NCBI GenBank assembly: GCA_965277775.1
Contig: OZ255843.1
Span: 455,451 to 519,450 of the forward strand
Length of the DNA: 64,000 nt
DNA from: Gammaproteobacteria bacterium
Lineage (GTDB): Bacteria > Pseudomonadota > Gammaproteobacteria > CAKMZV01
Direction of reading: 5' to 3'
This document shows, in pieces, positions 242 to 13,094 of the stretch (position 1 is the stretch's first letter; each line of letters opens with the position of its first letter). Both the position numbers and the translations under genes were made by a program. Under the pieces are notes generated by a model that was not told the origin of the DNA, made no database searches, and was given only the letters and a program-made list of their open reading frames with translations.

Positions 242-253
242 TGTACTTAAACA

Positions 254-789: not shown

Positions 790-860
790 TATAACGCCCA
801 CATTTGCGGCTAGTTTGGAGCGCAGCGGAAAACCAGTCCGACAACATGCGCTTGTTATGT
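790..860 (-). repeat. attC site
   Basis: ATAACGCCCACATTTGCGGCTAG...GCGCTTGTTATG; shares core with attC at 6924 and 7743. Confidence 0.65.
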
Positions 861-1658
861 TTTTACTGCACTATTCAAGGCTGTTATTGACTTTTTGGCT
901 TCTGCTAACTTTTTAGCTCTATTCAATTGCTCAAGTTTTTCATCCAGAATTATTTCAATGCCTACTTTCATCGCAGGGAATGCTGCTAAGCATTCTTTCT
1001 CATTTAGCTCGTGTATCCCTTTGCTTAATATTGAATAGATAGCACTATTTTCTACCAAAAACTCTGGTAGCTCAGATTGCAAGAGCTTAATCTTTTCATT
1101 CATTCTCGATTTTAAATACAAATCTTCATCCCAGCCATCTTGTACTTTGGCAATTGTATGAGACTCCTCTATTAGAAATTCGAAAATACGACGAAGATAA
1201 ACAAACGAACCTACGCCTATACCATGAGAAACAAGACCAATTGCTTTTGTAAATTCTTGGAAGTACTTTTCATCAAGAACCTTAGAGTACTTTTTTACAT
1301 CGAAATGATTGAGATCTGCAATAGATGGCATTTGCCCTATTTTTTGAATGGTTTTCCCACTAGCATGAAAGATAAAATGTAGCTTGTGGTCATTGTTTCT
1401 TGTGCATTTAAAATCTATTGAAAAAAATCCAGATTCGACCCACGAGTCTGCTTCATAATAAAATTCATTTGAGTTCTGCCAATAACGCTCAAAAATACTG
1501 TGCGTATTACAGTGGGGGCAATAAGAGTCAAGGGTATCACCAAAGTATCTTAACTTTCTTCCAAACTCCAAATCTTCATCAGCATAAGTTATCACCTCAT
1601 AGAGAGGTAATTCGATAAGAAATTGTTCTGGTGTTGGATAATTTTTACTTGTACTCAA
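855..1658 (-). CDS. hypothetical protein (cassette ORF, 267 aa)
   Basis: long ORF flanked by attC sites; no family recognised. Confidence 0.55.
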   Translation of the reverse strand: MSTSKNYPTPEQFLIELPLYEVITYADEDLEFGRKLRYFGDTLDSYCPHCNTHSIFERYWQNSNEFYYEADSWVESGFFSIDFKCTRNNDHKLHFIFHASGKTIQKIGQMPSIADLNHFDVKKYSKVLDEKYFQEFTKAIGLVSHGIGVGSFVYLRRIFEFLIEESHTIAKVQDGWDEDLYLKSRMNEKIKLLQSELPEFLVENSAIYSILSKGIHELNEKECLAAFPAMKVGIEIILDEKLEQLNRAKKLAEAKKSITALNSAVKT

Positions 1659-1674
1659 TTCTCTCTCCTAGAAA

Positions 1675-1755
1675 CATAACGCCTTGCGCAACGGCGAGCG
1701 CCGTAAGCGTTTGTCCAGCACGCGTAGCGTACGTATTGCCGCAACTTGTTATGTA
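1675..1755 (-). repeat. attC site
   Basis: ACATAACGCCTTGCGCAACGGCGAGCGCC...GCAACTTGTTATG; imperfect internal palindrome. Confidence 0.65.
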
Positions 1756-1766
1756 TTTTAATACAC

Positions 1767-2300
1767 TTATATAATATCGAACATTACATTATGGCTTTGC
1801 CATAAATTCTCAATTACATCTTTTTCTCGTAGCCCATCGGTGGATTTTTGAATATTCTGATTCGGTGTAATATCAACAAAGAGATATAAGATGAAGTCGA
1901 ATTCAGTACTATATAATAGACATTGCCCTAACCCACTTCTTAGCGCAGAGCCACCATCTCCTTTTTTGATTTCAATCCCTATTCTAAAGTCACCTAAGTC
2001 TAAGATTGCATCCGGTCTGTGGTTAGTACTAAATACCGTAAAATTATTTACAGTCGTTGTTAATTTCTGTTCCCATTGAAAATCAGTAACTAATTCTTTG
2101 CTTTTTTTATCATTTATCCCATATTTGATAAGGTATTCATCTAATTTTTCCTCTAGATATAAAAACAAATTCTTTTGTATTACATTTTCAGTATCACTAT
2201 TCCTAGAAACTTTTTTTGAAAACATACTATGATTTTTCATGCGCGACATAATAGATTCAAGTAATTCTACTCTCCTAACTGTTTTTTTCGCTAAACTCAT
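1767..2300 (-). CDS. hypothetical protein (cassette ORF, 177 aa)
   Basis: ORF between attC sites. Confidence 0.5.
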   Translation of the reverse strand: MSLAKKTVRRVELLESIMSRMKNHSMFSKKVSRNSDTENVIQKNLFLYLEEKLDEYLIKYGINDKKSKELVTDFQWEQKLTTTVNNFTVFSTNHRPDAILDLGDFRIGIEIKKGDGGSALRSGLGQCLLYSTEFDFILYLFVDITPNQNIQKSTDGLREKDVIENLWQSHNVMFDII

Positions 2301-2329
2301 ATTTTAATTCCTCATTAGTTCATTACTAA

Positions 2330-2370
2330 ACATAACGCCTAGCTCTGCGGTTTGTTAAGCTCTTGTTGTA
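2330..2370 (-). repeat. possible short/degenerate attC site
   Basis: CATAACGCCTAGCTCTGCGGTTTGTTAAGC; same end-boxes but only ~40 bp. Confidence 0.35.
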
Positions 2371-2956
2371 AAAAAGGAAAATCCAATTTATAACAATCAG
2401 ATACTCTCTTGTAAATATTATCATCACCTTCATCATGAGCAGCAAGAGTAAGGTAATAGTTCTTCCCTTCAAATTCTTGGAATACAATCCACTCACCAGT
2501 TATTTTATGATTGGCAGCTCGCTCCTTTAACATTCCAAAAGTTAACCCATTAACTATAAAACCAATAAATTCATCATCTACATACCCGGATGTATTCTGA
2601 TTTGATGCTCTCTCAATTAACTGATTTAGCTTTTTATTCCCGCCCCTCTCTAGCCCAAAGTGTGATCCCATATTTTTGACAATGAAACTTGCATCAGTAA
2701 AATGAGTTTTCTTCAGTCCCTTTAAAGGAAGTCTCTTAAATTCTTCTGCTTTCTTGGTTCTTGGCTGCCTTCCTAGACCTTCCAAGCATTTAATTTCATC
2801 CATAATTTGATCAGTATTTATTACCCGATTCCCTTGCATCTGCATAATTTGAACAATAAAAATACTACTAATTCTTGATATGTCTAAACCAAAGAAACCA
2901 ATATCTTTTTTGGTAAAATTCTCTAAATCAATTCTACTTAATGCGACTGATTGCAC
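2339..2956 (-). CDS. hypothetical protein (cassette ORF, 205 aa)
   Basis: ORF between attC-like sites. Confidence 0.5.
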   Translation of the reverse strand: MQSVALSRIDLENFTKKDIGFFGLDISRISSIFIVQIMQMQGNRVINTDQIMDEIKCLEGLGRQPRTKKAEEFKRLPLKGLKKTHFTDASFIVKNMGSHFGLERGGNKKLNQLIERASNQNTSGYVDDEFIGFIVNGLTFGMLKERAANHKITGEWIVFQEFEGKNYYLTLAAHDEGDDNIYKRVSDCYKLDFPFLQQELNKPQS

Positions 2957-2971
2957 GATCTATCCCTGAGC

Positions 2972-3027
2972 GTAACGCTAGAATCCAGCCGACGCGTTAG
3001 CGGTCGGCTGAAATGATATGTTAGGTG
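2972..3027 (-). repeat. attC site
   Basis: CGTAACGCTAGAATCCAGCCGACGCGTTAGCGGTCGGCTG...ATGTTAGG; palindromic GCCGAC/GTCGGC arms. Confidence 0.6.
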
Positions 3028-3168
3028 TAATTACACCTTTATTAATCACCTTTCTTGTGTTCGTGAGGTTTAAGTTTCCGTGTATTTCCCGGAGTATTTT
3101 TATTATCTCGTTGCCGCCTATCTGGCTTCCCAGTTGATTCAGCAATTCGTTTTGGACCTGGTTTAATT

Positions 3169-3195
3169 CCCATAGTTTCCATAGTTTCCATAGTT
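3169..3195. repeat. 3x tandem 9-bp repeat CCATAGTTT
   Basis: seen directly: cccatagtttccatagtttccatagtttt; lies in a small minus-strand ORF (MET-MET-MG...). Confidence 0.7.
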
Positions 3196-3252
3196 TTCTC
3201 CTATTAAAATTTAATTACTTATATATGGTTGAAATTGTATTTCTCAAGCGCA

Positions 3253-3501
3253 TTATCTATCCATTTCAAAAGTACGATATTCATCAGTATTGTAATCGTA
3301 ACTTTCTACTCCAACAGATGAACCATAACTATTTACCGACTCTACATCTCCATATTTATATTCACCTGTTCCATAATCATAATATTCAATTTCATTTCCC
3401 TGTCGAACAAGATTACCTTTATCAATTTCAACATAATTTCCTTTAGTGTAGTCGTATCCATCCCAAGCAGATACAGAATATGAAGCAATTAACAAAATCA
3501 C
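3253..3501 (-). CDS. small secreted Tyr/Asp/Gly-rich protein (cassette ORF)
   Basis: 82-aa ORF with N-terminal signal-like segment; low-complexity YDYxxG repeats. Confidence 0.35.
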   Translation of the reverse strand: MILLIASYSVSAWDGYDYTKGNYVEIDKGNLVRQGNEIEYYDYGTGEYKYGDVESVNSYGSSVGVESYDYNTDEYRTFEMDR

Positions 3502-3574
3502 CGATAATATTATTTTGATTCTTTCTCCTATAATTTTTCAAGTTTTAGAAAAAATAGTGAGATGTGAAGGAGAC

Positions 3575-3634
3575 TCCTAACGCTTAAACTCAACGGCGGC
3601 GGAACGCCTTCCGCTGGAGTGCCTTGTTAGGCGT
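3575..3634 (-). repeat. attC site
   Basis: CCTAACGCTTAAACTCAACGGCGGCGGAACGCCTTCCGCTGGAGTGCCTTGTTAGGC. Confidence 0.65.
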
Positions 3635-4391
3635 AGTGTTCTCGGCGATGGCAATTGGGACATAAGGCAATAGCATTTTCCACCGTGTCTTCACCGCCAT
3701 CGGCAAGTCGTTTTTTATGATGCACTTCAAGATAAGGACTTCCGTCAGAACGCCGAGTAAACGGTGCTGGGCACTTACAGAGCTCACAAACACCTTGGGC
3801 TCGTTCGAGGACTTCAACAACTACATTTGCGTTTCGCAAGAATACCGTTGTGTAAACTTTAACCATTCTTGGAATTCGTGGAGCTCTTGTAAGCTGCACC
3901 TTCCGCTCTTCGGAACTTCGCTTTTTTGCCTGTTGAATGGACTTCTCAAAATCCTTATCATGGGAAACGAGGTTAGGCTGAGGAGAGCGTGAATTTTTGA
4001 TATGTTGTTCAAATATTGAATATGATTCAAGACTAAATTTTGTTTTTGCATTACTAAAACTATCATTCTTGAATTTCTCTGGGCATAGTTCTACAAACAC
4101 TTCTGGGCCAATAGGGTCAAAGACTTTGATTGAATCAACATCAAATCGTAAAAAATCTTCGCCCTGTTCTTCAAAAATAGCACTCGCAATGATCTCGTTG
4201 TTGTACTGGAATAAAATGACCGTACCGGGTTTTGCATTGAGCCCTTTTTTACCAATGACGTATTTGCCACCTCTTGATGGTAAGTACTCCATAAAAAACT
4301 GCAATTGAACAATATTGTATGATTTTCCTTGAAACTCAGAATTATCAGTGCTCATCGGTAAAATTTGAAATTCTATATTTCTATCTGTCAT
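3627..4391 (-). CDS. HNH endonuclease domain protein (cassette ORF, 254 aa)
   Basis: C-terminal CxxC...HH...N...CxxCH pattern (CELCKC...LEVHHKKRLADGG...ALCPNCHRREH), typical of HNH nucleases. Confidence 0.6.
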   Translation of the reverse strand: MTDRNIEFQILPMSTDNSEFQGKSYNIVQLQFFMEYLPSRGGKYVIGKKGLNAKPGTVILFQYNNEIIASAIFEEQGEDFLRFDVDSIKVFDPIGPEVFVELCPEKFKNDSFSNAKTKFSLESYSIFEQHIKNSRSPQPNLVSHDKDFEKSIQQAKKRSSEERKVQLTRAPRIPRMVKVYTTVFLRNANVVVEVLERAQGVCELCKCPAPFTRRSDGSPYLEVHHKKRLADGGEDTVENAIALCPNCHRREHYA

Positions 4392-4410
4392 GTAAAACTC
4401 GTTATCTATG

Positions 4411-4482
4411 CCTAACGCCTAGCTCACCAGAAAAATGCGAGCACAGCGAGTATTTTGTCCGGTGGAGCTACTTGTTAGGAGT
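4411..4482 (-). repeat. attC site
   Basis: CCTAACGCCTAGCTCACCAG...GGTGGAGCTACTTGTTAGGAG. Confidence 0.6.
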
Positions 4483-4584
4483 AATTATTGCTCAAGTATT
4501 TGAACAGCCATTCTCTTTCTATTTCCGTTACTGATTTTGCCAATTCGAGTCTGTCTGTTCCCTGCGTCGCTTTGCCTGTGATTG

Positions 4585-5232
4585 TTATGTTTTTGGTGAT
4601 TTCTTAGCCACGACAAAATAGCTAGATGCGTCTTTATAGATCTCTTCGGACTCAATTGATTGAAATCCGCCAATTTCTAATAAATCTTCTACTTCAGAGC
4701 TTGTAATTCTTCTTATTGGTATGGGAATTAATCCAAGTTTACATAAGACCCGTACCAGCTGGATTTGAAGATTAACTAAAAATGACATCCTTTGACGCAA
4801 GCAAGGTGTAACGGAAATGAATAAACCATCTGGCTTTAGTAATTCATTTATTCGTAGCATGACATCCTGTGGACTAGGGACTGTATGCAACATATTAAAA
4901 GCCAGGATGACATCATAGGATTCATTAGAATATTTGCTGTCAAAAATATCTGATTGCTCAAATCTTACATTTTCAACTTTCGTAGCCTCCGCTTTCTCCC
5001 TCGCAATTTCAATCATCTTCGATGATATATCAATAGCGTGAACTTCTTTAACTTGACTGGAAAACTGACACGCGGCAGTTCCTGTTCCGCACCCATAATC
5101 GAGAATGGTATCGCTACACTTTAGGAATCTTTTGGTGTTTTCCCTAGACCTACTGTGAATGTACTCAAAACGTTCTTCGGTCTTGTCGTAGTTTTTGGAC
5201 GCTCCGTCCCAAAAATCTTCCGATTTATTCAT
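4585..5232 (-). CDS. class I SAM-dependent methyltransferase (cassette ORF)
   Basis: motif I ILDYGCGTG and post-I acidic residue; 215 aa. Confidence 0.7.
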   Translation of the reverse strand: MNKSEDFWDGASKNYDKTEERFEYIHSRSRENTKRFLKCSDTILDYGCGTGTAACQFSSQVKEVHAIDISSKMIEIAREKAEATKVENVRFEQSDIFDSKYSNESYDVILAFNMLHTVPSPQDVMLRINELLKPDGLFISVTPCLRQRMSFLVNLQIQLVRVLCKLGLIPIPIRRITSSEVEDLLEIGGFQSIESEEIYKDASSYFVVAKKSPKT

Positions 5233-5255
5233 ATTCTACTCCTTAATGGGGGAAA

Positions 5256-5336
5256 CATAACGCCTCAAAAATGGGCCAGAGCACGCAGTGCGGAGATCCA
5301 GCCTCGAAGGGGCGACATTGATTGACTTGTTATAAG
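5256..5336 (-). repeat. attC site
   Basis: CATAACGCCTCAAAAATGGGCCAGAGCACGCAGTGCGG...GACTTGTTATAAG. Confidence 0.6.
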
Positions 5337-5339
5337 CCA

Positions 5340-5900
5340 CTATGGGGCCTGCACCCAGCCAATATTTTTATCTTTTACTGGGTCAATAATTGGAAATATG
5401 TCGTCCTGAGTAAAAGGCTCAGCATCTTGGCCTATACCAAACAGTAGATAATTTTCTCCATCACTCAGGACTTTGTAGTAGAAATCACGTTGCTGCCCAC
5501 CAATATTCAATGGGCCAGACATATCAAAGGAGAATACCATTTCACCTTCCTTCAAGTTCTCTCGAAGGGCGGCCATTGATTCAGGGTAAGCTCCGTGCTG
5601 AAGTTTGTAGTATTCAATTTGCCTTACTATGGAAGTCATAGCACTTACAGCGTGAACTTCAAAACCCTTTGAAAATTCATTATCGTTGAAAGCCTTGTAG
5701 AACAGTGAGCCATAAAGAACAACGCTGAATATTATTCCAGCGAAGCCCAAGCCACCAAGAAGCTTCGAGTTTGATTTTTTACCAACGACAGCGACGACAA
5801 TACAGATGATACCGAAAAAGATTCCGATGAGTGGGATGAAAGACAAGCCAGATAATACAAAAGCTCCAACGCCATGTTTTTTCTTTTCTTCAGTATTCAC
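5340..5900 (-). CDS. hypothetical membrane-anchored protein (cassette ORF, 186 aa)
   Basis: two N-terminal TM segments, soluble C-terminal domain. Confidence 0.5.
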   Translation of the reverse strand: MNTEEKKKHGVGAFVLSGLSFIPLIGIFFGIICIVVAVVGKKSNSKLLGGLGFAGIIFSVVLYGSLFYKAFNDNEFSKGFEVHAVSAMTSIVRQIEYYKLQHGAYPESMAALRENLKEGEMVFSFDMSGPLNIGGQQRDFYYKVLSDGENYLLFGIGQDAEPFTQDDIFPIIDPVKDKNIGWVQAP

Positions 5901-5916
5901 TACTCCTCCTAATGCA

Positions 5917-5975
5917 TATAACGATCAAACTCAGCGGCAGCGATTAGCCGTCCGTTGGAGTGCTTTGTTAGCCAA
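5917..5975 (-). repeat. attC site
   Basis: TATAACGATCAAACTCAGCGGCAGCGATTAGCCGTCCGTTGGAGTGCTTTGTTAGCC. Confidence 0.6.
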
Positions 5976-5994
5976 GATTTTTTTTATGAGTCCA

Positions 5995-6897
5995 TTAAAC
6001 TTCCCAGTGTTTCTTCCAGTCTCCTTTAACTCTTAAATCTGTTTGGCTAGCTTCTTCAACTAGTTTACAAACTAACAATTCCGCTGCACTACCACCATAA
6101 TTGTTCTTGGCTTTCTCAAATTTTTCACGGGCTAATAATGTCATATCCATTTGTACGCCGTTTTCTTTTCCTAATTCACTTAGTAAACGCAAGTCTTTGC
6201 AACATAAATCTAAAGAAAAAGAAGGATCATAGTGTCCATCAAAAATGGATGGCACATCGTGACGAACAACAAATGTGTCGCCCACACTATTTTTTAGAGC
6301 CTCCCAAAGTACGAGTAAATCAACACCAGCTTTCTTACCTAATATCAATGCTTCTCCAATAGCTGACGCATTAATAAACCATATTTGATTAGTTACCAAT
6401 TTCGTTATATTGCCTGTACCTAAAGAGCCACACTCAATTATTTTGCCCATTATTTCAAGATAAGGTCTAACATTATTGATAACCGTTTTTTCACCGCCAA
6501 CAAAAAAAGTGAGTCTTCTTAATCGAGCACCATCAACAGCACCTGTGACGGGAGCCTCTACAACTGAAACGCCTTTTGTAAGTGCTAGTTTTTCTAATTG
6601 TAATAATAACTCTCGGTCATTGGTTGTTAGATCAACCCAGGTACTACCGCTTTGCATAACATCAAGCAATGAAGGAAGGGCTTTTTCAACATGATGGGGT
6701 TCTGGGAAAGAGGTAAATAACACATCTACATTCTTGGCTACATCTATTCCATTTTTTCCAATTTTGGCTCCATACTGAGTGACTGGGGAAATTTTATTTT
6801 CGTCTAAATCATACACAGTGATATCGCACCCAGCTTTTGCTAAGTTAATAGCCATTGGCGCACCCATATTTCCCAATCCAATATATCCAATTTTCAT
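5995..6897 (-). CDS. NAD(P)-dependent oxidoreductase, 3-hydroxyisobutyrate/6-phosphogluconate dehydrogenase-like family (cassette ORF)
   Basis: N-terminal MKIGYIGLGNMG Rossmann motif, 300 aa. Confidence 0.75.
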   Translation of the reverse strand: MKIGYIGLGNMGAPMAINLAKAGCDITVYDLDENKISPVTQYGAKIGKNGIDVAKNVDVLFTSFPEPHHVEKALPSLLDVMQSGSTWVDLTTNDRELLLQLEKLALTKGVSVVEAPVTGAVDGARLRRLTFFVGGEKTVINNVRPYLEIMGKIIECGSLGTGNITKLVTNQIWFINASAIGEALILGKKAGVDLLVLWEALKNSVGDTFVVRHDVPSIFDGHYDPSFSLDLCCKDLRLLSELGKENGVQMDMTLLAREKFEKAKNNYGGSAAELLVCKLVEEASQTDLRVKGDWKKHWEV

Positions 6898-6923
6898 TTT
6901 TTATCCTCGTTAATATTTTTGGG

Positions 6924-6994
6924 CTAACGCCCGCATTTGCGGCTGAGGAAAGCGCAGCTTTCCGAAGTCCGACTGCATGCGTTTTTGTTATGCG
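6924..6994 (-). repeat. attC site
   Basis: CTAACGCCCGCATTTGCGGCTGAGGAAAGCGCAGC...GTTTTTGTTATGC. Confidence 0.65.
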
Positions 6995-7746
6995 TCATTG
7001 TAAATTACTGGCATTTTGCCTCTCCACACATTCCACAAATCGGAGTCTGTGGCTAAATTAGCCATGAAATTCGAGACGTTAATGCGACTTGTTGGAGCTG
7101 AATCGAAAATTGCATTTCTCGTTGGGGAAGTGTGAGTCTTATATTTAGACACTTCCTTTTCATTTGTAAGACTATCGGGTCTTACAGCAACCCATTCAAT
7201 AAACTGGTGATCTTGACCAATGCAAGTCCGGAGAAAATCAGCCGCTTGCTCGTTATCTACATGCGGCGGAAGCAACAATCGCAATACTGATATTACAAGT
7301 TTCTGTGATAGCGGAGGTTTTTCTGGAATATCACGATTACTGTTACCTGTTGTGTTCATCAGGATAATTTTAATCTTCTTGTCTGGCTCTAGAGATTCAA
7401 TAGCTCTAGACACTTTTTTAATTGTATCGGCGACCAATCGCCTGGGTTCTCCAAACATTCCCTTGAAAGTCAAATTGTGGCCTAAGCAGGAAAGCACAAC
7501 ATCACAACCTTTTAGAGCAAGCATCAAATCCTGTTCTGACATTTCCGTAATGCTGGCTGGTATTTCACGATAGTTCGATTGGTTTGCAAATATGTTTACT
7601 AAAGAGCTAGCGGCTCGAACGACAGCTACAACCTCTGTATTTCGTTGGAGTAAATCCGCAACAAGCAGCTTACCTGTGGCACCACTTGCTCCCAATACTA
7701 GTACTTTCTTCATATTACGTCCTTGGTTGATGCATAACGCCCGCAT
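6988..7746 (-). CDS. NAD(P)H-binding protein, NmrA/atypical SDR-like (cassette ORF)
   Basis: KKVLVLGASGATGKLLV glycine-rich Rossmann motif; 252 aa. Confidence 0.65.
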   Translation of the reverse strand: MRALCINQGRNMKKVLVLGASGATGKLLVADLLQRNTEVVAVVRAASSLVNIFANQSNYREIPASITEMSEQDLMLALKGCDVVLSCLGHNLTFKGMFGEPRRLVADTIKKVSRAIESLEPDKKIKIILMNTTGNSNRDIPEKPPLSQKLVISVLRLLLPPHVDNEQAADFLRTCIGQDHQFIEWVAVRPDSLTNEKEVSKYKTHTSPTRNAIFDSAPTSRINVSNFMANLATDSDLWNVWRGKMPVIYNDA

Positions 7747-7802
7747 TTGCGGCTGGTTTGGAACGCAGGGGAATATTTGTCCGACAGCAGCGCTTTGTTA
7801 TA
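7743..7802 (-). repeat. attC site
   Basis: CATAACGCCCGCATTTGCGGCTGGTTTGGAACGCAGGG...GCTTTGTTATAGC. Confidence 0.65.
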
Positions 7803-7811
7803 GCTTTTTTC

Positions 7812-9161
7812 TCAGACATTTAGCTCAACAACTGTGTTTTCTATGTCATTGTACTCTTCACAGATTACACAAACCTCAATAGCAATCTTGCCCTCTATCA
7901 GAGGAACTACCATATATTCGTCATCGAACGTCATGCGTCTCGTATGGAGCAGGTTATTGATCTTTATAGTAATTTTACTTCCTTCCAATCTAGTCCACCA
8001 TGGTTGATTTATAGAGCGGATTTTCGGTAAATTATACTCGGGGTGAACTCCTCTTGAAAGCCCCATCAATTCATTTCCTAGGCCTAACAGAGATTGCAAA
8101 TCTGATATCGTAGTAGCATTCTCGTTAAATTTTTCTGCGTATTTAGTTTGAGCACGTTTTATTGGATTAATTGGGATCGGGTTTTTCGGCTCACTATGAT
8201 TTTCACCTATTTTGTAGATAAGAACCCCTTCTGGAAACTCGATATCTACATAGACATTGTTTGCTTTAGCAGAACCGTTATTGGCAATCTCTATGACTAA
8301 CGTAGAGGAATAATTTATAATCTTATAAAACCTTTCACACTCCTTGTTGAAATCATCTAAATCCTGCTGGCTAGGGATCGAGTTGTTGTATTTTTCAACG
8401 TCTTGTTCTGAAACAAACTCTAGCAGGTGCTCCTCAATACCCTCGAATCTCAATGACTCTGGCATTTCAGTCATCTTATAGGAATTGAAGTCCTCATCAA
8501 TAGCCGGAGGTGCTATATCAACGTCAATAACTGGAAGCTTTGATGATATCTTTGACTCAAGATCTGTCACTCTTTCTCTTAGCTCTCTATTCTCCTTGCT
8601 GAGAGCCGTCAATTCCTTAGAAAGAGCTTCCTCAGCACGAGCCTTATCTCCTCTAACCCATCCTATGCCAGGCTTTTGCATAATCTGTTTCATTAATGAA
8701 ATAGAAACACTTATTATAAGCTGATCTTTCGTTTCCCAAAACTGCGCCATTTTAAAGTTTGTTAAAACTAACTCTCGAAATTTTTTTATTTCTGAGAGAT
8801 CATCATCCCACTTGTCCTTTGACAAGGACACGGTGTCTTTCATCACAAATGCAAGGATCGGTATATTTTTCTCTAGCGCATACTCATATTCCTTTTGAGT
8901 AAAACTAATCCCTTCAGATGTTTTTGAACCATACCTCATACCTAAAACAAGAACGTAGTAATCGCTCACCTCTATGGTTCTTCTAATTATTTCCCACTGA
9001 TCCTCATCTTCAGCACTGAACATCTCCATGCCGATGGGTATATGGTACATCTCCAAGATAGCCTTGATGATACTTTCCCGTTCATCTACTAAATCAGAGT
9101 AAGTTGAGCTTAAGAAAACTTGATACTTTGTTGATTTCAAGACTACTCCTGGATATTTCAA
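7812..9161 (-). CDS. DUF4062-like (TIR/nucleoside-deoxyribosyltransferase-like fold) N-terminal domain protein with coiled coil and unknown C-terminal domain (cassette ORF, 449 aa)
   Basis: N-terminus VFLSSTYSDLVDERESIIKAIL...IPIGMEMF...YVLVLGMRYG...IPILAF recalls DUF4062; central heptad-rich stretch; domain call from memory. Confidence 0.5.
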   Translation of the reverse strand: MKYPGVVLKSTKYQVFLSSTYSDLVDERESIIKAILEMYHIPIGMEMFSAEDEDQWEIIRRTIEVSDYYVLVLGMRYGSKTSEGISFTQKEYEYALEKNIPILAFVMKDTVSLSKDKWDDDLSEIKKFRELVLTNFKMAQFWETKDQLIISVSISLMKQIMQKPGIGWVRGDKARAEEALSKELTALSKENRELRERVTDLESKISSKLPVIDVDIAPPAIDEDFNSYKMTEMPESLRFEGIEEHLLEFVSEQDVEKYNNSIPSQQDLDDFNKECERFYKIINYSSTLVIEIANNGSAKANNVYVDIEFPEGVLIYKIGENHSEPKNPIPINPIKRAQTKYAEKFNENATTISDLQSLLGLGNELMGLSRGVHPEYNLPKIRSINQPWWTRLEGSKITIKINNLLHTRRMTFDDEYMVVPLIEGKIAIEVCVICEEYNDIENTVVELNV

Positions 9162-9168
9162 CGATAGA

Positions 9169-9224
9169 TATAACGCCGCCTTCAGCCGTGCGCCTTTGCA
9201 TCGGCTGGAAGGCTTTGTTATAAC
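9169..9224 (-). repeat. attC site
   Basis: TATAACGCCGCCTTCAGCCGTGCGCCTTTGCATCGGCTGGAAGGCTTTGTTATAACC. Confidence 0.6.
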
Positions 9225-9793
9225 CGATTTTGGTAAACACTCGCTATTTTTTTATTGATTTCTGTGGCTATTACTTGTGCTTTTATCATTGTGCATTGAA
9301 CTGTTTTCCAATTGTTCCAGTGTTGTTGCCAAATTTCTGTACCTACAATTTTTTCGAAGTCTACTTTAGTAGGTGTTCCCCAGCTCTCATAAGCTCGAAG
9401 TTTGATTATACGTTGCGCTAAATCAGGGATTTTCTTGGATTTTGGGGATAGTTTGGCATCACTATTAATCCAGGTCTCCCAAGCTTTGTTACCTTTTGAC
9501 TGGTTGCACTTTCCACAAGCAGGCACAAGGTTGTGGATTTCAGAAACATAACCAGTCGGTTTCTTGTCTTTAACTAATGGCCGCAAGTGATCCCATTCAG
9601 TAGCAGAAGAACCACAGTAAGAGCACTGAAATGTATCGCGATTCATTCCTAGGATTTCTAGAGCAGTTTTAACCTCACCATCATTAGGTTCAATCACTGG
9701 AATAATTGAGTTTATGAAGGAGTTTGTAATGCTTGATGATCTCCCAGTGATTTTCATCGGAGTAGGCATTTTGAATAATGTTAAATAATTCAT
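9218..9793 (-). CDS. HNH endonuclease (cassette ORF, 191 aa)
   Basis: CSYCG...WDHLRP...HNLVPACGKCNQSKG: Cys4/His HNH signature. Confidence 0.6.
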   Translation of the reverse strand: MNYLTLFKMPTPMKITGRSSSITNSFINSIIPVIEPNDGEVKTALEILGMNRDTFQCSYCGSSATEWDHLRPLVKDKKPTGYVSEIHNLVPACGKCNQSKGNKAWETWINSDAKLSPKSKKIPDLAQRIIKLRAYESWGTPTKVDFEKIVGTEIWQQHWNNWKTVQCTMIKAQVIATEINKKIASVYQNRL

Positions 9794-9827
9794 AAGTTAA
9801 CGATACTGCTGGTTGAACTCGATTAGG

Positions 9828-9896
9828 TTATAACGACTAAACTCAGCCGACCGAAACCGCTTGCGGTTTTGGGTCGGCTGGAGTGCCTTGTTATGT
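9828..9896 (-). repeat. attC site
   Basis: TTATAACGACTAAACTCAGCCGACCGAAACCGCTTGCGGTTTTGGGTCGGCTGGAGTGCCTTGTTATG; long palindromic arms. Confidence 0.65.
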
Positions 9897-10307
9897 GTTT
9901 TTCTCGTAATAAACGGGTTCATTATTGTCATAAATAGCCTTTTCTAAAACACGCTTTATTTCATCTTTTTGATTTTCATCTATGAATAGATGACCACTTT
10001 GACCAGGAAAAACTTTATTATTTAATCTATCTAGCATATGAATAATTTTAATGTCATTAACCTTATGACCTTCTGTGTACTTGTCATCCCTTTCTTTACA
10101 AGTATTTCTTTCTCCACAAAACATTGCTTTGGCTACAATGTAACTATCATATGCAAAATATATTGTATCTTCTGATTTTAGTTTATCTCCGATTTTTACA
10201 GTAGCATAAAAGAAATTATTATCTCTCGAAGTTAATAAATGCCTAAAAAACTCCTTCGTTTCTTTAATATCACCATCTGAGCTATCCATCCTAAACAGAA
10301 CATCCAT
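9891..10307 (-). CDS. hypothetical protein (last cassette ORF, 138 aa)
   Basis: ORF downstream of nothing recognisable, followed by attC 9828-9896. Confidence 0.45.
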   Translation of the reverse strand: MDVLFRMDSSDGDIKETKEFFRHLLTSRDNNFFYATVKIGDKLKSEDTIYFAYDSYIVAKAMFCGERNTCKERDDKYTEGHKVNDIKIIHMLDRLNNKVFPGQSGHLFIDENQKDEIKRVLEKAIYDNNEPVYYEKNT

Positions 10308-10731
10308 AGTTAACCTCCTTATGTATTTTATAACCCACCAGATTGATCAGGTGTGTTAGCTTTCTTTGCCTTTGAAACTTCGTATGCTTGATATAATTTT
10401 CTCATAATTGCTTCTGCCCGATGAGTATATCAGATTTCAATTTCTGCATTTGGTTCTACATCAAAAATTGAAACTAGCGATGAATCTCCTTTATCATAGT
10501 TAAACTGCCCATCTTTTTTTATCATCACTAATCCTCCAATAGTTGCCGTGCGGATAATTTGATGATTTAACACTCGAATATTTTTTTGTAAGTAGTGAGA
10601 AAATTTCCAAATACTTTCCAGTTAATAAGGGCGATTTTGATTTTAGAATTACTTCTGTTATTTTAAGGGAGGGATGAGAGGACGTTCAACTGCTCAACGA
10701 CCAACGCGAGTTAGAGCAACAGCAAAAATGA

Positions 10732-11247
10732 CTATCGCTTCGGGGTATAAAATGGGTTATAGGCATTTGCTTGGGCATTTGCCACCTCTTGTTTGGATGG
10801 CTTTCCAGTCAGAGCTTTTGTTATTGCTTTGGCGATGCATTGACGGTTGTTATCATAGACCAAGTCTAAATCAGTCACTTTAGGATTGACCCAGACGCAG
10901 GCCACAATGCACCAGTTTTCAAACATGTCATCAGTAATGACGCCCTCTTCCACAAGGTCTTGTATGCCTCTGGCTAAACCTGCTTGAGCTGCGCCCCAAG
11001 TTGCATCACCATGTTTGTCAGAGGTGATTTCAGCCTTGGTGGCAAATAAGGTGTCTGGCTTTACTGAGATGCCTGGTTGATGAATGGCCATGAATGGAAT
11101 ATAGCCTTGTCTGGGGGCGGCCATTGCATTGAGCAATGCTTGTCCTACAGCACTCGATTTTGGTCCAAATAGTGCGTTTATGTGCGCAGCGTTGAAGTTT
11201 CCTGCGCCGTCTTCTCCAACAAATGATTCTCCAATGTAAATACTCAT
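10732..11247 (-). CDS. fae: formaldehyde-activating enzyme (5,6,7,8-tetrahydromethanopterin hydro-lyase)
   Basis: 171 aa; strong similarity by memory to Fae (MSIYIGE...GDGAGNF..AHI...FGPK...). Confidence 0.8.
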   Translation of the reverse strand: MSIYIGESFVGEDGAGNFNAAHINALFGPKSSAVGQALLNAMAAPRQGYIPFMAIHQPGISVKPDTLFATKAEITSDKHGDATWGAAQAGLARGIQDLVEEGVITDDMFENWCIVACVWVNPKVTDLDLVYDNNRQCIAKAITKALTGKPSKQEVANAQANAYNPFYTPKR

Positions 11248-11291
11248 AGCAATTGATCCTTGGTTATCCTTTAGGTGATTATCATAACAGG

Positions 11292-12398
11292 TTATTCGTG
11301 GGGTAATAAAACCGTACGAATGGCTTTGCCTTCTTTAAAGTCCGCAAGCGCCTTAGCAATATGGTCTAACGATAAGGTTTGGGTGACCAGTTCATCTAAA
11401 AGCACTTCTCCTTTTTGATAAAGTCTGGCGATTTTGGGAAAATCAAGTCTGCAATTGGCACTGCCATAAAAGCTGCCCGTTAAAATCTTCTCTTCGCGAG
11501 GAATGTTTTGTTGGGGCAGGTTCACGTTTTTGCCGACAGCGTCTATGCCCACGGCAACTATCGTTCCTCTGCGTCGCGTTAATGCATGTGCTTGTGCGAG
11601 CAGGTCTGCATTACCCACCACCTCAAATGAGAAGTCAACGCCTATGCCACGTGTGAGTGATGCCACCATAGCTTCAACCTCATCTGGCTTAGCAAAATGG
11701 GTCATACCAAAAGTCTTGGCTATGTCCACCTTATCGGCATTGGCATCAACACCGATGATCGTTTCCGCACCGCAGATACGTGCGCCTTGAATCACATTTA
11801 AGCCCACGCCGCCTAAGCCATACACCAGAACGGTGCTGCCTGGAGTCACTTTGGCGGTATTCATGGCTGCGCCTATGCCCGTCATGACGGCACAACCTAT
11901 AAGAGAAATAGGGGCGAAATCCATGCCATCGTCAAGTTTGATGCAGCTGGCTTCGTTCACAACCGCGTGCTGAGCCCAAGTCGATAAAAAACTGTAGTGG
12001 TAAATGGTTTCTCCGCTGGAGGTTTTCATACGAGACGTGCCGTCTAACAGACCGCCATCCAAAACTTTAGGCGCTGAGCTTTCGCATAAATGTGAATGCC
12101 CAGAATCGCAAAAAAAGCAATGACCACAATCGGGCGCCCATGACAATGCGACGCTATCTCCTGGCTGCACTCTTGTGACTGATTTGCCGACAGCTTCAAC
12201 GATGCCCGCGCCTTCGTGTCCTAATACAACAGGAAAGGGTGATGGAATGGTGCCGGTGATTACGTGGGCATCACTGGCACAAACGCCCGTTGCCATGATT
12301 TTGACTAAGACTTCGTCGTCTTTGGGCGGATCGAGTATGATTTCTTCTACGACTGGTGCTTGATTGACACCGTAACAGAGGATGGCTTTGGTTTTCAT
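11292..12398 (-). CDS. zinc-dependent alcohol dehydrogenase (class III / formaldehyde dehydrogenase-like)
   Basis: GHEGAG zinc-ligand motif, C-x2-C-x2-C-x7-C structural Zn site, GLGGVG Rossmann; 368 aa. Confidence 0.8.
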   Translation of the reverse strand: MKTKAILCYGVNQAPVVEEIILDPPKDDEVLVKIMATGVCASDAHVITGTIPSPFPVVLGHEGAGIVEAVGKSVTRVQPGDSVALSWAPDCGHCFFCDSGHSHLCESSAPKVLDGGLLDGTSRMKTSSGETIYHYSFLSTWAQHAVVNEASCIKLDDGMDFAPISLIGCAVMTGIGAAMNTAKVTPGSTVLVYGLGGVGLNVIQGARICGAETIIGVDANADKVDIAKTFGMTHFAKPDEVEAMVASLTRGIGVDFSFEVVGNADLLAQAHALTRRRGTIVAVGIDAVGKNVNLPQQNIPREEKILTGSFYGSANCRLDFPKIARLYQKGEVLLDELVTQTLSLDHIAKALADFKEGKAIRTVLLPHE

Positions 12399-12467
12399 GT
12401 CTTTTAAATATGGATAACAAATACAGAAAGAATTATTTTAACAAGCATGAATGGCTTTTGCAAAGTC

Positions 12468-13064
12468 TTAAAGGACTTTAAATTTGCGACGTTTTTCTGG
12501 GCTGAGAATGCGCCAGGATAGCAATAGCACAAACATAAAGCCAAACAGCATGGGTTCAGCTGAGTCCGCTTTCACTAGTAGAAAAAAATGGAGTACGCCA
12601 AACACAGGGATGATGTAAACCCAGTTGTGAATTTTTTGCCAGGTTTTTTTCAGGCGTTTGCGCCAACCCATGGTTGAAGTTAGAGCTAATACTATCAACA
12701 CAACTAAGGCGACAATCCCAGCCCAAATATAGGGATGCTCGAGAATGTCCAACCAGATCTCATCCCAATAAAATCCCAAATCAAGACCGAGGTACACAAG
12801 CGAATGCAGAACCGCATAGAAGGCAGCAAATAGGCCCAGTTGACGACGATAGCTCATGGGTGCAAACCAACCCAAAAGTTCTTGCACAGGTTTTACCATC
12901 AAGGTGAGTACCAAGAAGAACAGGCTTAATTGTCCAGATTGGTGGGTGATGTACTCAATGGGATTGGCCCAAAGGTCGTCTTGAAAAAGTCCCCAAGTAA
13001 ACCAAAACGCAGGAATAATTGACAGTGTGAATAGACCGACGCGGGTCCATGTCAAAGGGTACAT
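12468..13064 (-). CDS. msrQ: protein-methionine-sulfoxide reductase haem-binding subunit
   Basis: 198-aa polytopic membrane protein, ferric-reductase-like TM domain with conserved His; adjacent to msrP. Confidence 0.8.
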   Translation of the reverse strand: MYPLTWTRVGLFTLSIIPAFWFTWGLFQDDLWANPIEYITHQSGQLSLFFLVLTLMVKPVQELLGWFAPMSYRRQLGLFAAFYAVLHSLVYLGLDLGFYWDEIWLDILEHPYIWAGIVALVVLIVLALTSTMGWRKRLKKTWQKIHNWVYIIPVFGVLHFFLLVKADSAEPMLFGFMFVLLLSWRILSPEKRRKFKVL

Positions 13065-13094
13065 TAGAGCTACTTCTATAATTCAGGCGCTATT

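What the first reader, a model, noticed from the sequence alone, without database searches (positions are those of the whole stretch)
3627..9793. Cassettes carry candidate defence or conflict genes: two HNH nucleases, a DUF4062-like protein and a methyltransferase
Among the cassettes are two unrelated HNH-endonuclease proteins, at 3627-4391 and 9218-9793, and a class I SAM methyltransferase at 4585-5232. There is also a 449-aa protein at 7812-9161 whose N-terminus resembles DUF4062. DUF4062 is a TIR/nucleoside-deoxyribosyltransferase-like domain that often heads anti-phage and abortive-infection proteins. Here it is followed by a coiled coil and an unknown C-terminal domain. Integron cassettes are now known to be reservoirs of phage-defence systems. 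These single-gene cassettes, and the neighbouring unknown ORFs at 855-1658, 1767-2300 and 2339-2956, are therefore good candidates for uncharacterised defence or toxin functions.
Basis: inference. Interest (0 to 1): 0.6.

Follow-up and report, generated by a model that had tools for sequence, protein, structure and literature searches.

The report
Integron cassettes carrying phage-defence genes
A chromosomal array of mobile gene cassettes carries two genes that look like one-gene anti-virus systems of recently described kinds (an NAD-destroying "suicide" enzyme with an unusual sensor domain, and a nuclease that cuts modified DNA), mixed with ordinary metabolic genes and unknowns, so it is a real but only moderately novel find.

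Summary
The ORFs and domains are real, and window 1-9,900 is a genuine attC cassette array with genes on the minus strand. No integrase lies in the window.

- **DUF4062 gene (7812-9140, 442 aa; true start 7 codons inside the listed ORF).** It is a close relative of the 2026 "Swarozyc" NADase KpSwz over the TIR-like core and helical stalk (E=1e-42; profile 6e-53). All published catalytic and motif residues are invariant. Its 244-aa C-terminal "AUX" domain is unrelated to KpSwz's winged-helix portal sensor and is predicted to be an Ig-like beta-sandwich. The same AUX occurs behind other effector modules (Schlafen/PDC-S50, PDC-S60, HetE-N). The gene keeps identical cassette ends in at least six genera. 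In Klebsiella it sits in a defence island.
- **HNH1 (3627-4391).** A PUA/YTH/EVE-like reader fused to a McrA-type HNH, which is the Type IV modification-dependent restriction architecture.
- **HNH2 (9218-9793).** A widespread, stand-alone ~190-aa HNH cassette. It is not Septu, and its function is unresolved.
- **Methyltransferase.** Small-molecule type, with no support for a defence role.
- **The three unknown ORFs.** Still unknown.

The DUF4062 cassette is a new variant of a known kind. Interest is moderate.

The parts
7738..9173 (-). DUF4062 cassette. It runs from the G|TT crossover of the upstream attC R' to the G of its own attC R'.
   Evidence: attC coordinates. The same boundaries (upstream GTTATAGC..., downstream GCTATAACAA + attC) recur in relatives L001-L004, L010, L011 and L075.
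7812..9140 (-). Gene for a 442-aa Swarozyc/Evangelion-type DUF4062 protein (TTG start at 9140; stop at 7812-7814).
   Evidence: Pfam DUF4062 1.7e-28. Identical to P0001. KpSwz (PDB 10wc) 1.2e-42. phrog_9489 full length 3.7e-79.
8661..9140 (-). TIR-like NADase core (aa 1-160) with F9, Q48-W49-E50 and catalytic E84-Y85. W161 follows as the first residue of the next segment.
   Evidence: Aligned to KpSwz. E84 falls on the mutated position of the E97A chain. All of these residues, W161 included, are invariant in 48 homologues, and mean pairwise identity is 85%. BFVD fold hits are to nucleoside 2-deoxyribosyltransferase-like proteins.
8547..8660 (-). Helical (coiled-coil) stalk, aa 161-198.
   Evidence: AF2 helix 168-198. 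Aligns to the KpSwz stalk up to residue ~205.
7815..8546 (-). AUX domain, aa 199-442. Helical hairpin plus Ig-like beta-sandwich with a disordered variable loop (aa 343-372). Putative sensor.
   Evidence: pLDDT 80-90. Foldseek hits to integrin calf, alpha2-macroglobulin receptor-binding domain, DUF11 and TRAPB-type sandwiches. No match to KpSwz AUX, even by profile. 46% mean identity versus 85% for the core. Found behind other effector modules.
7734..7801 (-). attC of the DUF4062 cassette (68 nt).
   Evidence: (family D3).
3581..4415 (-). HNH1 cassette.
   Evidence: Bounded by attC 4412-4478 and attC 3577-3630.
3627..4391 (-). HNH1: predicted Type IV modification-dependent restriction endonuclease (254 aa). 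PUA/YTH/EVE-like reader (aa ~1-140, nt 3972-4391) plus McrA-type HNH (aa ~169-254, nt 3630-3887).
   Evidence: Pfam HNH 1.7e-11. PADLOC mREase_IV 2.4e-20. EcoKMcrA 6ghc 2.3e-19 and ScoMcrA 1.8e-8. AF2 pLDDT 83. Foldseek 6ghc 1.4e-8, VcaM4I 6yex 1.4e-4, YTH domains and 1zce.
3577..3630 (-). attC of the HNH1 cassette (54 nt). Its R'' box overlaps the stop codon.
   Evidence: Homologues in L070 and L071 also end ...HY[AG]* TAACAA.
9174..9833 (-). HNH2 cassette.
   Evidence: Bounded by attC 9830-9894 and attC 9170-9221.
9218..9793 (-). HNH2: stand-alone 191-aa HNH endonuclease of a large conserved family. Function unresolved.
   Evidence: Pfam HNH 6.2e-7. PtuB/PDC-M01B match to the HNH core only. 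2,807 homologues of ~190 aa. A homologue is its own cassette in L073, and one is paired with HEPN in L074.
9170..9221 (-). attC of the HNH2 cassette (52 nt).
4416..5260 (-). Methyltransferase cassette. The gene at 4585-5232 encodes a class I SAM-dependent methyltransferase of small-molecule type. attC at 4412-4478.
9830..9894 (-). attC of the first cassette seen (gene 9891-10307, 138 aa, unknown function).
5922..7737 (-). Two metabolic cassettes: an NAD(P)-binding SDR-like protein (6988-7746) and a HIBADH/tartronate-semialdehyde-reductase-like dehydrogenase (5995-6897), each with its own attC (6924-6991 and 5918-5971).
795..2975 (-). Three cassettes with unknown ORFs: 2339-2956 (205 aa), 1767-2300 (177 aa; PD...EIK motif) and 855-1658 (267 aa).
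   Evidence: No Pfam, PADLOC, NCBIfam or PDB matches. PHROG unknown-function families phrog_33791 (9e-16) and phrog_25239 (6e-10). Clusters of 1-2 members. Motif found. attCs.

Best explanation
The interval is part of a chromosomal attC cassette array, integrase-less within the window, whose cargo is mixed. Two cassettes are predicted single-gene anti-phage systems of known kinds.

(1) Gene 7812-9140 encodes a Swarozyc/Evangelion-type protein. It has an N-terminal TIR-like DUF4062 NADase (catalytic E84), a dimerising helical stalk, and a C-terminal AUX domain. By analogy with KpSwz, the protein is held in an auto-inhibited oligomer. Binding of a multimeric phage component by AUX then realigns the stalks and activates hydrolysis of NAD+ to ADP-ribose plus nicotinamide. 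This kills or arrests the infected cell (abortive infection). Here AUX is an Ig-like beta-sandwich module rather than KpSwz's winged-helix portal binder, so the trigger is probably different.

(2) Gene 3627-4391 encodes a Type IV restriction enzyme. A PUA/YTH/EVE-like domain reads a modified base in incoming DNA, and a McrA-type HNH domain cuts that DNA. The host's unmodified DNA is spared.

The remaining cargo:
- HNH2 is a mobile stand-alone HNH nuclease. It is possibly defensive or selfish, and its role is unresolved.
- The methyltransferase and the two dehydrogenases are ordinary enzymes.
- The other ORFs are unknown.

Shown here: homology, motif conservation, predicted folds, cassette structure and genomic contexts. 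Inferred: NADase activity, the trigger, modification dependence, expression, and any phage phenotype.
For: - Cassette array: 12 attC sites on the gene strand.
- DUF4062 homology: Pfam 1.7e-28. PDB KpSwz 10wc/11cq/11cv at 1.2e-42 over aa 11-205, and 6.4e-53 by profile.
- Motifs: E84 aligns with KpSwz E97. F9, QWE, E-Y and W161 are invariant in 48 homologues. These match the residues shown to be essential in KpSwz and Eva01.
- Core versus sensor: core 85% versus AUX 46% mean identity.
- AUX modularity: AUX recurs behind SLFN_AlbA_2/PDC-S50 (2e-70), PDC-S60 (6e-30) and HetE-N modules.
- Defence-island context: in Klebsiella the gene lies beside SMODS/AGS-C+SLATT and SMC_N/AAA_23-MComp1-CTD1 genes.
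- Mobility: the same cassette boundaries occur in Marinospirillum, Cellvibrio, Marinomonas, Methylobacter, Helicobacteraceae and V. cholerae.
- HNH1: PADLOC mREase_IV 2.4e-20, EcoKMcrA 2.3e-19, and Foldseek hits to EcoKMcrA, VcaM4I, ScoMcrA and YTH domains. Relatives with a swapped N-terminus include an EVE-HNH protein.
- Published work shows that integron cassettes encode defence systems.
Against: - No experiment was done on this protein or its AUX type. PADLOC v2 has no model that hits it.
- The AF2 confidence for the TIR-like core is low (pLDDT 50-70).
- The HNH1 reader-domain fold matches are weak (E 5e-3 to 2e-2, TM 0.4-0.48). The modification it would read is unknown.
- No promoter signal above background was found, and no integrase or Pc lies nearby. 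The cassettes may be silent.
- Eva02, a DUF4062 protein, gave no protection in the published tests.
Confidence: 0.7

Rival explanations
1. The nuclease and NADase cassettes are addiction or stabilisation toxins, or selfish elements such as homing-type HNH endonucleases. They would persist because they are costly to lose or because they self-propagate, not because they protect against phage.
For: Chromosomal integron arrays are known to carry toxin modules. HNH2 is a small, highly conserved, very mobile stand-alone HNH found in cassettes, prophage regions and small insertions. Many PHROG HNH families match it.
Against: - No antitoxin-like partner lies inside the DUF4062, HNH1 or HNH2 cassettes, because the attC boundaries leave one ORF each.
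- The DUF4062 relatives KpSwz and Eva01 are demonstrated anti-phage systems that are non-toxic without a trigger.
- HNH1 has a reader-plus-nuclease architecture, not that of a homing enzyme.
Confidence: 0.12
2. The cassettes are silent or decaying cargo. The genes are intact by sequence but are not expressed in this host, because the array has no integrase or Pc promoter, so they have no current function.
For: No intI or obvious Pc lies at the promoter-proximal end. Promoter-like sites number 22 versus 19.5±4 expected by chance. Degenerate attCs are present (mini-attC 2332-2358). The published view is that distal cassettes are low-cost 'biobank' items.
Against: All ORFs are intact and full length relative to their homologues. 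A promoter-like site at 10689-10660 (minus strand) upstream of the first cassette could drive read-through. Silence would not change what the genes encode.
Confidence: 0.3
3. The methyltransferase (4585-5232) and HNH1 (3627-4391) form a two-gene restriction-modification-like unit.
For: They are adjacent in transcription order. A class I methyltransferase also precedes the HNH1 homologue in L071. There is a PADLOC 'mad2' hit at 2.4e-23.
Against: - A complete attC (4412-4478) separates the two genes, so they are independent cassettes.
- The two methyltransferases share only 22% identity over the generic SAM-binding fold.
- The window's methyltransferase lacks the (D/N/S)PP(Y/F) and PCQ motifs.
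- Its PDB matches are all small-molecule, lipid or protein methyltransferases or uncharacterised ones; none is a DNA methyltransferase.
- HNH1 is McrA-like, that is methyl-dependent, which is incompatible with a protective methylase.
- The mad2 hit covers only the generic methyltransferase domain.
Confidence: 0.03
4. HNH2 is the nuclease subunit of a Septu-like (PtuAB) system.
For: PADLOC PtuB and PDC-M01B hits, E 3e-7 to 1e-4.
Against: For nearly all models the hits cover only the ~50-residue HNH core. No ATPase gene lies in the cassette or next to it. The homologues examined are alone (L073, L078), beside a DUF3644 gene in a prophage-like region (L079), or paired with HEPN (L074); none is next to a PtuA-type ATPase.
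Confidence: 0.03

Closest known systems
Swarozyc (KpSwz, K. pneumoniae WP_202404386; Osinski et al., bioRxiv 10.64898/2026.05.01.722283; PDB 10wc/11cq/11cv)
   Same: Both are single-gene systems. The N-terminal DUF4062 TIR-like domain and helical stalk align over aa 4-204 (profile E=6e-53). The catalytic Glu aligns with E97. The overall layout is the same: core, stalk, then C-terminal AUX.
   Different: The AUX domain is unrelated in sequence and predicted fold. Here it is ~244 aa and Ig-like beta-sandwich plus helices. In KpSwz it is ~120 aa, HTH/winged helix, and binds the portal. The protein is 442 aa versus ~340 aa, the trigger is unknown, and the gene is carried on an integron cassette.
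Evangelion (Eva01-04; Ibarra-Chavez et al., bioRxiv 10.64898/2026.06.25.731849)
   Same: A conserved DUF4062 core coupled to a diversified AUX region. The F, Q/W/E, E-Y and W motifs are all present and invariant. It is a single gene carried on mobile elements.
   Different: Eva01 has a short AUX and is staphylococcal and plasmid-borne. Staphylococcal plasmid hits share only the N-terminal ~200 aa with the window protein. Whether the window family equals Eva02, Eva03 or Eva04 cannot be checked, because no accessions are available. Integrons are not mentioned in that paper.
EcoKMcrA (PDB 6ghc), ScoMcrA (5zmm) and EVE-HNH VcaM4I (6yex): Type IV modification-dependent HNH restriction enzymes
   Same: The C-terminal McrA-type HNH domain (2.3e-19 to EcoKMcrA). 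The two-domain reader-plus-HNH layout. The best whole-model fold matches.
   Different: The N-terminal reader is a rare domain with only ~10 full-length homologues. It has only weak fold similarity to YTH/EVE. Its specificity is unknown.
Integron defence cassettes: BRiCs (Kieffer et al., bioRxiv 10.1101/2024.07.02.601719) and SCI systems including the His-Me/HNH-like Sirona and Nemetona (Darracq et al., bioRxiv 10.1101/2024.07.02.601686)
   Same: Compact one-gene defence candidates bounded by attC sites. Stand-alone HNH-type cassettes have been shown to protect.
   Different: Neither paper mentions DUF4062, and neither reports an McrA-type or TIR-type cassette ('McrA', 'TIR' and 'NADase' do not occur in the Darracq text; 'HNH' and 'TIR' do not occur in the Kieffer text). 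Relatedness of HNH2 to Sirona or Nemetona could not be tested because no sequences were accessible. The array here lacks an integrase within the window.
Septu PtuB / PADLOC PDC-M01B
   Same: HNH2 shares the HNH core.
   Different: There is no PtuA-type ATPase partner, and similarity is limited to the catalytic motif.

Membership tests
Swarozyc (Osinski et al. 2026) | N-terminal DUF4062 TIR-like domain with the catalytic glutamate (KpSwz E97). | tested here: met
   Pfam 1.7e-28. Aligned to KpSwz with E84 at the E97(A) position. E84 is invariant in 48 of 48 homologues.
Swarozyc (Osinski et al. 2026) | Helical stalk after the core that intertwines dimers. | tested here: met
   The alignment continues through the KpSwz stalk to residue ~205. 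AF2 predicts a helix at 168-198. Dimerisation itself was not tested.
Swarozyc (Osinski et al. 2026) | HTH/winged-helix AUX domain that binds the phage portal. | tested here: not met
   No sequence match beyond residue 205, by single sequence or by profile. The predicted AUX fold is an Ig-like beta-sandwich.
Swarozyc (Osinski et al. 2026) | Trigger-activated NAD+ hydrolysis and abortive infection. | not testable with these tools
   Requires biochemistry and phage assays.
Evangelion (Ibarra-Chavez et al. 2026) | DUF4062 core with the aromatic F, Q/W/E, E-Y and W motifs. | tested here: met
   F9, Q48-W49-E50, E84-Y85 and W161 are invariant.
Evangelion (Ibarra-Chavez et al. 2026) | Single gene with a diversified C-terminal AUX region required for defence. 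| tested here: inconclusive
   The single ORF between two attC sites and the divergent AUX are met. The requirement of AUX for defence is not testable here.
Type IV modification-dependent restriction endonuclease (McrA / EVE-HNH type) | McrA-type HNH (beta-beta-alpha-Me) nuclease domain. | tested here: met
   Pfam HNH 1.7e-11. PADLOC mREase_IV 2.4e-20. EcoKMcrA 2.3e-19. H224, H225, N239, H248 and the Cys pairs are invariant.
Type IV modification-dependent restriction endonuclease (McrA / EVE-HNH type) | N-terminal modified-base reader domain (PUA-like: EVE, YTH, ASCH or SRA). | tested here: inconclusive
   The whole model matches EcoKMcrA (1.4e-8) and EVE-HNH VcaM4I (1.4e-4). The N-terminal domain matches YTH domains and 1zce only at E 5e-3 to 2e-2 with TM 0.4-0.48. 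No Pfam hit.
Type IV modification-dependent restriction endonuclease (McrA / EVE-HNH type) | No cognate protective DNA methyltransferase. | tested here: met
   The adjacent methyltransferase is a separate cassette and not a DNA methyltransferase.
Type IV modification-dependent restriction endonuclease (McrA / EVE-HNH type) | Cleavage depends on DNA modification. | not testable with these tools
   Needs in vitro digests or restriction assays.
Septu (PtuAB), considered for HNH2 | HNH PtuB encoded next to a PtuA ATPase. | tested here: not met
   The cassette holds a single ORF. No ATPase lies next to the homologues. The PADLOC match is to the core only.
Integron gene cassette | ORF followed by an attC with an R'' (RYYYAAC) and R' (GTTRRRY) inverted pair, in the same orientation along the array. 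| tested here: met
   12 sites. Conserved boundaries recur in other genera.
Integron gene cassette | Associated intI integrase and attI (a complete integron). | tested here: not met
   None of the ten large ORFs scanned, including all five next to the array's promoter-proximal end, is an integrase. The array abuts Fae, ADH, MsrQP and MFS genes. The array continues beyond window position 1.
DNA methyltransferase / R-M system, considered for the methyltransferase | DNA-MTase catalytic motif IV ((D/N/S)PP(Y/F)) or the C5 PCQ motif. | tested here: not met
   Regex finds neither. The best PDB and NCBIfam matches are UbiG, PMT, YcgJ and MitM-type enzymes, all below family cut-offs.

The most novel reading that the evidence does not exclude
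The 244-aa Ig-like AUX domain would be a previously undescribed, portable phage-sensing module. Evolution has plugged it onto at least four different cell-killing effectors: the DUF4062 NADase, the Schlafen/AlbA_2 module of PDC-S50, the PDC-S60 N-terminal module, and HetE-N. The DUF4062+AUX version would spread between bacterial classes as a bona fide integron cassette. It would recognise a trigger other than the portal surface bound by KpSwz. That would give a natural system in which the same sensor drives different death effectors.
Probability: 0.4. Interest if true: 0.6.

Novelty: new variant of a known kind. Interest (0 to 1): 0.42.

Why it matters
- It links the newly described DUF4062 NADase defence family (Swarozyc/Evangelion) to integron cassettes. 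This is a route of spread not mentioned in the Evangelion preprint or in the two integron-defence preprints (it was not searched for in the Swarozyc text). The same cassette is shown here in several genera and two phyla.
- It identifies a second, structurally different sensor (AUX) type for that family. The sensor is shared with other candidate defence effectors and offers a handle for finding a new phage trigger.
- It adds a compact reader-plus-HNH Type IV enzyme with a rare reader domain.
- It cautions that only some cassettes in such arrays are defence genes. The methyltransferase and the two dehydrogenases are not.

Tried and rejected
1. A home-made structure-based attC detector. The strict version missed most known sites. 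The relaxed version fired ~0.5 times per kb in non-integron DNA and could not tell strands apart. I abandoned it and inspected gene flanks directly.
2. RNAalifold on the MAFFT alignment of 12 attCs gave no consensus pairs, because the variable-length centres misalign. No covariance model was built.
4. Exact-protein look-ups for the window's own genes were not on record. The source organism was therefore not identified. The closest DUF4062 relative is 86% identical and comes from an uncultured gammaproteobacterial MAG.
5. Methyltransferase plus HNH1 as a two-gene system: rejected.
6. HNH2 as Septu PtuB: rejected.
7. AUX related to KpSwz AUX: rejected by single-sequence and profile searches.
8. 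Phage-genome carriage of the DUF4062 family. Only two weak Acinetobacter phage hits at 24% identity, despite a full-length PHROG family.
9. Plasmid carriage. Only two full-length relatives, at 35-37% identity.
10. Promoter scan. No enrichment over shuffles.
11. ORF 9891-10307 as a stand-alone copy of the HNH1 reader. Only a weak local match, so no claim is made.
12. Accessions for Eva02-04 could not be obtained.

Full report

Pfam gives the following:
- 3627-4391: HNH, E=1.7e-11.
- 9218-9793: HNH, E=6.2e-7.
- 4585-5232: class I SAM-methyltransferase families (8e-28 and others).
- 7812-9161: a full DUF4062 match, E=1.7e-28, residues 14-95.

The two HNH proteins share no alignable similarity. 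The 449-aa ORF is an artefact of the ORF lister. The deposited protein P0001 and all homologues start at the TTG at 9140, giving 442 aa.

**The 'cassette' premise.** The premise holds. Reading the intergenic DNA on the gene strand shows one element after each gene. Each element begins (A/C)TAACA, usually at or a few bases after the stop codon, and ends GTTA(T/G/C). Twelve such attC sites of 52-77 nt lie between window positions 255 and 9894. Each of the four named genes is therefore a separate cassette:

| Cassette | Coordinates |
|---|---|
| HNH2 | 9174-9833 |
| DUF4062 | 7738-9173 |
| Methyltransferase | 4416-5260 |
| HNH1 | 3581-4415 |

No integrase is present. The promoter-proximal end abuts Fae, a Zn-dependent alcohol dehydrogenase, MsrQ/MsrP and an MFS transporter. 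The array also runs off the left edge of the window. Within the window it behaves as a CALIN-like attC cluster.

**The DUF4062 protein.** Two 2026 preprints have characterised this domain.
- Osinski et al. show that DUF4062 is a TIR-like NADase. Single-gene 'Swarozyc' proteins such as KpSwz are auto-inhibited oligomers with a TIR-like core and a helical stalk. Their winged-helix AUX domain binds the phage portal. Binding activates hydrolysis of NAD+ to ADPR plus nicotinamide and causes abortive infection. E97 is essential.
- Ibarra-Chavez et al. describe 'Evangelion' as a DUF4062 core plus a diversified AUX. F11, E87-Y88, the Q/W/E motif and W162 are needed for defence.

The window protein matches the KpSwz chains in the PDB (10wc, 11cq, 11cv) at E=1.2e-42 over residues 11-205. 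A 48-sequence family profile matches at 6.4e-53. In both searches the alignment stops at residue ~204, where the stalk ends. E84 of the 442-aa protein falls exactly on the mutated position of the E97A chain. F9, Q48-W49-E50, E84-Y85 and W161 are invariant in all 48 homologues.

**The C-terminal AUX domain.** The C-terminal 244 residues have no solved relative by sequence. AlphaFold2 predicts them confidently (pLDDT 80-90) as a helical hairpin plus a beta-sandwich with a disordered loop at 343-372.

Foldseek matches this region to Ig-like sandwiches: integrin calf domains, the alpha2-macroglobulin receptor-binding domain, and DUF11/TRAPB types. The N-terminal core matches nucleoside 2-deoxyribosyltransferase-like folds. 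The AUX is thus a different module from KpSwz's HTH/winged-helix sensor.

Within the family the core is 85% identical on average, the stalk 70%, the AUX 46% and its loop 21%. A conserved core beside a much more variable C-terminal domain fits an effector-plus-sensor layout; this reading is my inference.

An exhaustive search with AUX alone found 252 representative proteins. Of the top 150, 92 carry a DUF4062 N-terminus. Others carry different N-terminal modules:
- P0368 has a Schlafen/AlbA_2 module equal to PADLOC candidate PDC-S50 (E=1.9e-70).
- P0389 has the N-terminus of PDC-S60 (6.3e-30).
- P0303 has a HetE-N domain (1.6e-11).

The AUX therefore behaves as a swappable sensor.

**Genomic context of the DUF4062 family.** The family has 1,082 database hits, including large Klebsiella and Salmonella clusters. 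Among 69 loci in species-representative genomes, about thirty are full-length relatives at 32-86% identity. They come from Gamma- and Betaproteobacteria, Campylobacterota, Firmicutes, Bacteroidota and other groups.

The closer relatives keep the same cassette ends as the window: upstream G|TTATAGCTATC and downstream GCTATAACAA followed by an attC. This holds in:
- a gammaproteobacterial MAG (L001),
- Cellvibrio (L002),
- Marinomonas (L003),
- Marinospirillum (L004),
- Methylobacter (L010),
- a Helicobacteraceae MAG (L011),
- V. cholerae (L075).

Degenerate remnants of the ends occur in L006, L009 and L012. The Enterobacter and Trabulsiella copies and the distant Firmicutes and Bacteroidota members lack them.

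In Klebsiella (67% identity) the gene sits in a defence island. Its neighbours are a SMODS/AGS-C plus SLATT_4 pair and an SMC_N/AAA_23-MComp1-CTD1 system. In V. cholerae it lies next to a filamentous prophage. Full-length relatives are rare on plasmids (two, at 35-37% identity). About 197 staphylococcal plasmid hits share only the core, which is the Eva01 type.

**HNH1.** The last ~90 residues are a McrA-type HNH domain: EcoKMcrA 6ghc at 2.3e-19, ScoMcrA at 1.8e-8, and the PADLOC Type IV mREase model at 2.4e-20. More than 2,000 relatives share this domain at about 60% identity but have swapped N-termini. One of them carries a Pfam EVE domain. Only about ten proteins share the window's N-terminal domain.

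The AF2 model (pLDDT 83) best matches EcoKMcrA (1.4e-8), the EVE-HNH enzyme VcaM4I (1.4e-4) and ScoMcrA. Its N-terminal domain matches YTH m6A readers and Atu2648 (1zce), which I take to be PUA-like/EVE-type. These domain matches are weak, at E 5e-3 to 2e-2 and TM 0.4-0.48. This is the architecture of Type IV modification-dependent restriction enzymes. The modification it would read is unknown. Homologues in L070 and L071 also end with the stop codon running into a TAACAA box.

**HNH2.** It belongs to a very large family of ~190-aa proteins. There are 2,807 hits, and the top 120 are at least 62% identical. Only the HNH core resembles PtuB, PDC-M01B or Cas9/IscB HNH domains.

Contexts vary:
- its own cassette in a Paraferrimonas attC array (L073);
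- one cassette shared with an overlapping HEPN gene in Nitrosococcus (L074);
- a small insertion (L078);
- a prophage-like region (L079).

No ATPase partner was seen in any of them, so it is not Septu. Darracq et al. showed that two HNH-like cassettes from a chromosomal integron (Sirona and Nemetona) protect against phage. A defensive role is therefore plausible but untested, and I could not compare the sequences.

**Methyltransferase and other cargo.** The methyltransferase resembles UbiG/UbiE, phosphoethanolamine and phospholipid N-methyltransferases, YcgJ and MitM. All NCBIfam matches fall below the family cut-offs. It lacks the DNA-methyltransferase motifs.

A methyltransferase also precedes the HNH1 homologue in L071, but the resemblance is generic (22% identity). 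In the window a full attC separates the two genes. I therefore reject a two-gene R-M reading.

Genes 5995-6897 and 6988-7746 are ordinary NAD(P)-dependent oxidoreductases.

ORFs 855-1658, 1767-2300 and 2339-2956 have no Pfam, PADLOC, NCBIfam or PDB matches. Two hit PHROG families of unknown function, and their clusters hold only 1-2 members. ORF 1767-2300 contains a PD-x12-EIK motif compatible with a PD-(D/E)xK nuclease. That is inference only.

**Expression.** Promoter-like sites are no more frequent than in shuffled sequence (22 versus 19.5±4). With no Pc or intI nearby, expression is an open question.

**Verdict.** Two cassettes are strong candidates for single-gene defence systems of known kinds. 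The DUF4062 cassette is a new variant of Swarozyc/Evangelion with an Ig-like sensor that other effectors share, and it spreads as an integron cassette. HNH1 is a new member of the Type IV reader-HNH class. HNH2 is unresolved. The methyltransferase is not a defence gene. Interest is moderate, because the concepts (defence genes in integron cassettes, DUF4062 NADases) are already published. The new points are the sensor type, its modular reuse, and the integron route of spread.

Noticed in passing
window 10308-10731 and 10732-15654: The array's promoter-proximal end has no intI or recognisable attI. A 424-nt gap is followed by Fae, Zn-ADH, MsrQ, MsrP and MFS genes, so the array is integrase-less (CALIN-like) within the window. 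A promoter-like site at 10689-10660 (minus strand) could drive read-through.
   Followed up: partly
window 2332-2358 (minus strand); also L073 4126-4194: A 'mini-attC' in which R'' and R' are almost directly fused (TTAACAAACCGCAGAGCTAGGCGTTAT). It overlaps the 3' end of ORF 2339-2956. A similar ATAACAAGGCGTTAG occurs in the Paraferrimonas array. These may be deletion remnants of attC sites.
   Followed up: no
window 4479-4584: The methyltransferase cassette has ~105 nt between its stop codon and its attC. This stretch begins ACATAACAATCACAGG..., which resembles an R'' box. It may be a relic of a second attC from fused cassettes.
   Followed up: no
L073 729-3699 (Paraferrimonas haliotis BSPO01000003.1): One cassette in this array holds two genes with no attC between them: a DUF3800 protein (388 aa) and an OLD-family AAA_15/AAA_21-TOPRIM ATPase (589 aa). 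This is a candidate two-gene defence cassette. A NYN/OST-HTH cassette follows.
   Followed up: no
L074 5001-6156 (Nitrosococcus wardiae CP038033.1): The HNH2 homologue (217 aa) overlaps a downstream HEPN gene, and the attC comes only after HEPN. This is a two-gene HNH+HEPN cassette, next to HigB/HTH and MNT genes.
   Followed up: partly
L075 6001-7344 and flanks (V. cholerae JAYDCB010000007.1): The DUF4062 homologue keeps its cassette ends, including a ~95-nt attC. It lies beside an integrated filamentous prophage (Rep_trans, DUF1293, Zot) and near matP, lon and fabA. No other cassette-like genes appear in the 13-kb locus, so it does not look like part of an integron array.
   Followed up: partly
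L076/L077 (Klebsiella pneumoniae): The defence island around the DUF4062 gene holds DUF6387, a SMODS/AGS-C plus SLATT_4 (CBASS-like) pair, and an SMC_N/AAA_23-MComp1-CTD1 conflict system.
   Followed up: no
window 9891-10307: The 138-aa product of the first cassette shows weak local similarity to the HNH1 reader domain (36% over 45 aa, pairwise E=9e-5; hhalign probability only 10%). It may be a stand-alone domain of the same fold.
   Followed up: partly
window 1767-2300: The 177-aa ORF contains PDAILDLGDFRIGIEIK, a PD-x12-ExK pattern typical of restriction-endonuclease-fold nucleases. A weak PDB hit to an Ntox15 domain protein (E=0.09) is not significant.
   Followed up: partly
window 2976-3580: This cassette holds two small ORFs. 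One is an 82-aa protein with a hydrophobic N-terminus and repeated Y-D-Y/G-x-Y motifs (3253-3501). The other is a 55-aa ORF (2978-3145). An ATGGAAACT x3 repeat lies near 3170-3200.
   Followed up: no
window 5340-5900: A 186-aa cassette protein with N-terminal transmembrane helices and a weak T2SS pseudopilin G match (E=0.004, below the Pfam cut-off).
   Followed up: no
L071 4002-5153: A conserved ~30-nt element (GGCGAGCGTCGAGGCGTCAGCCCGACGTGT) follows three successive small genes upstream of the HNH1 homologue. It may be a different class of cassette-associated repeat.
   Followed up: no
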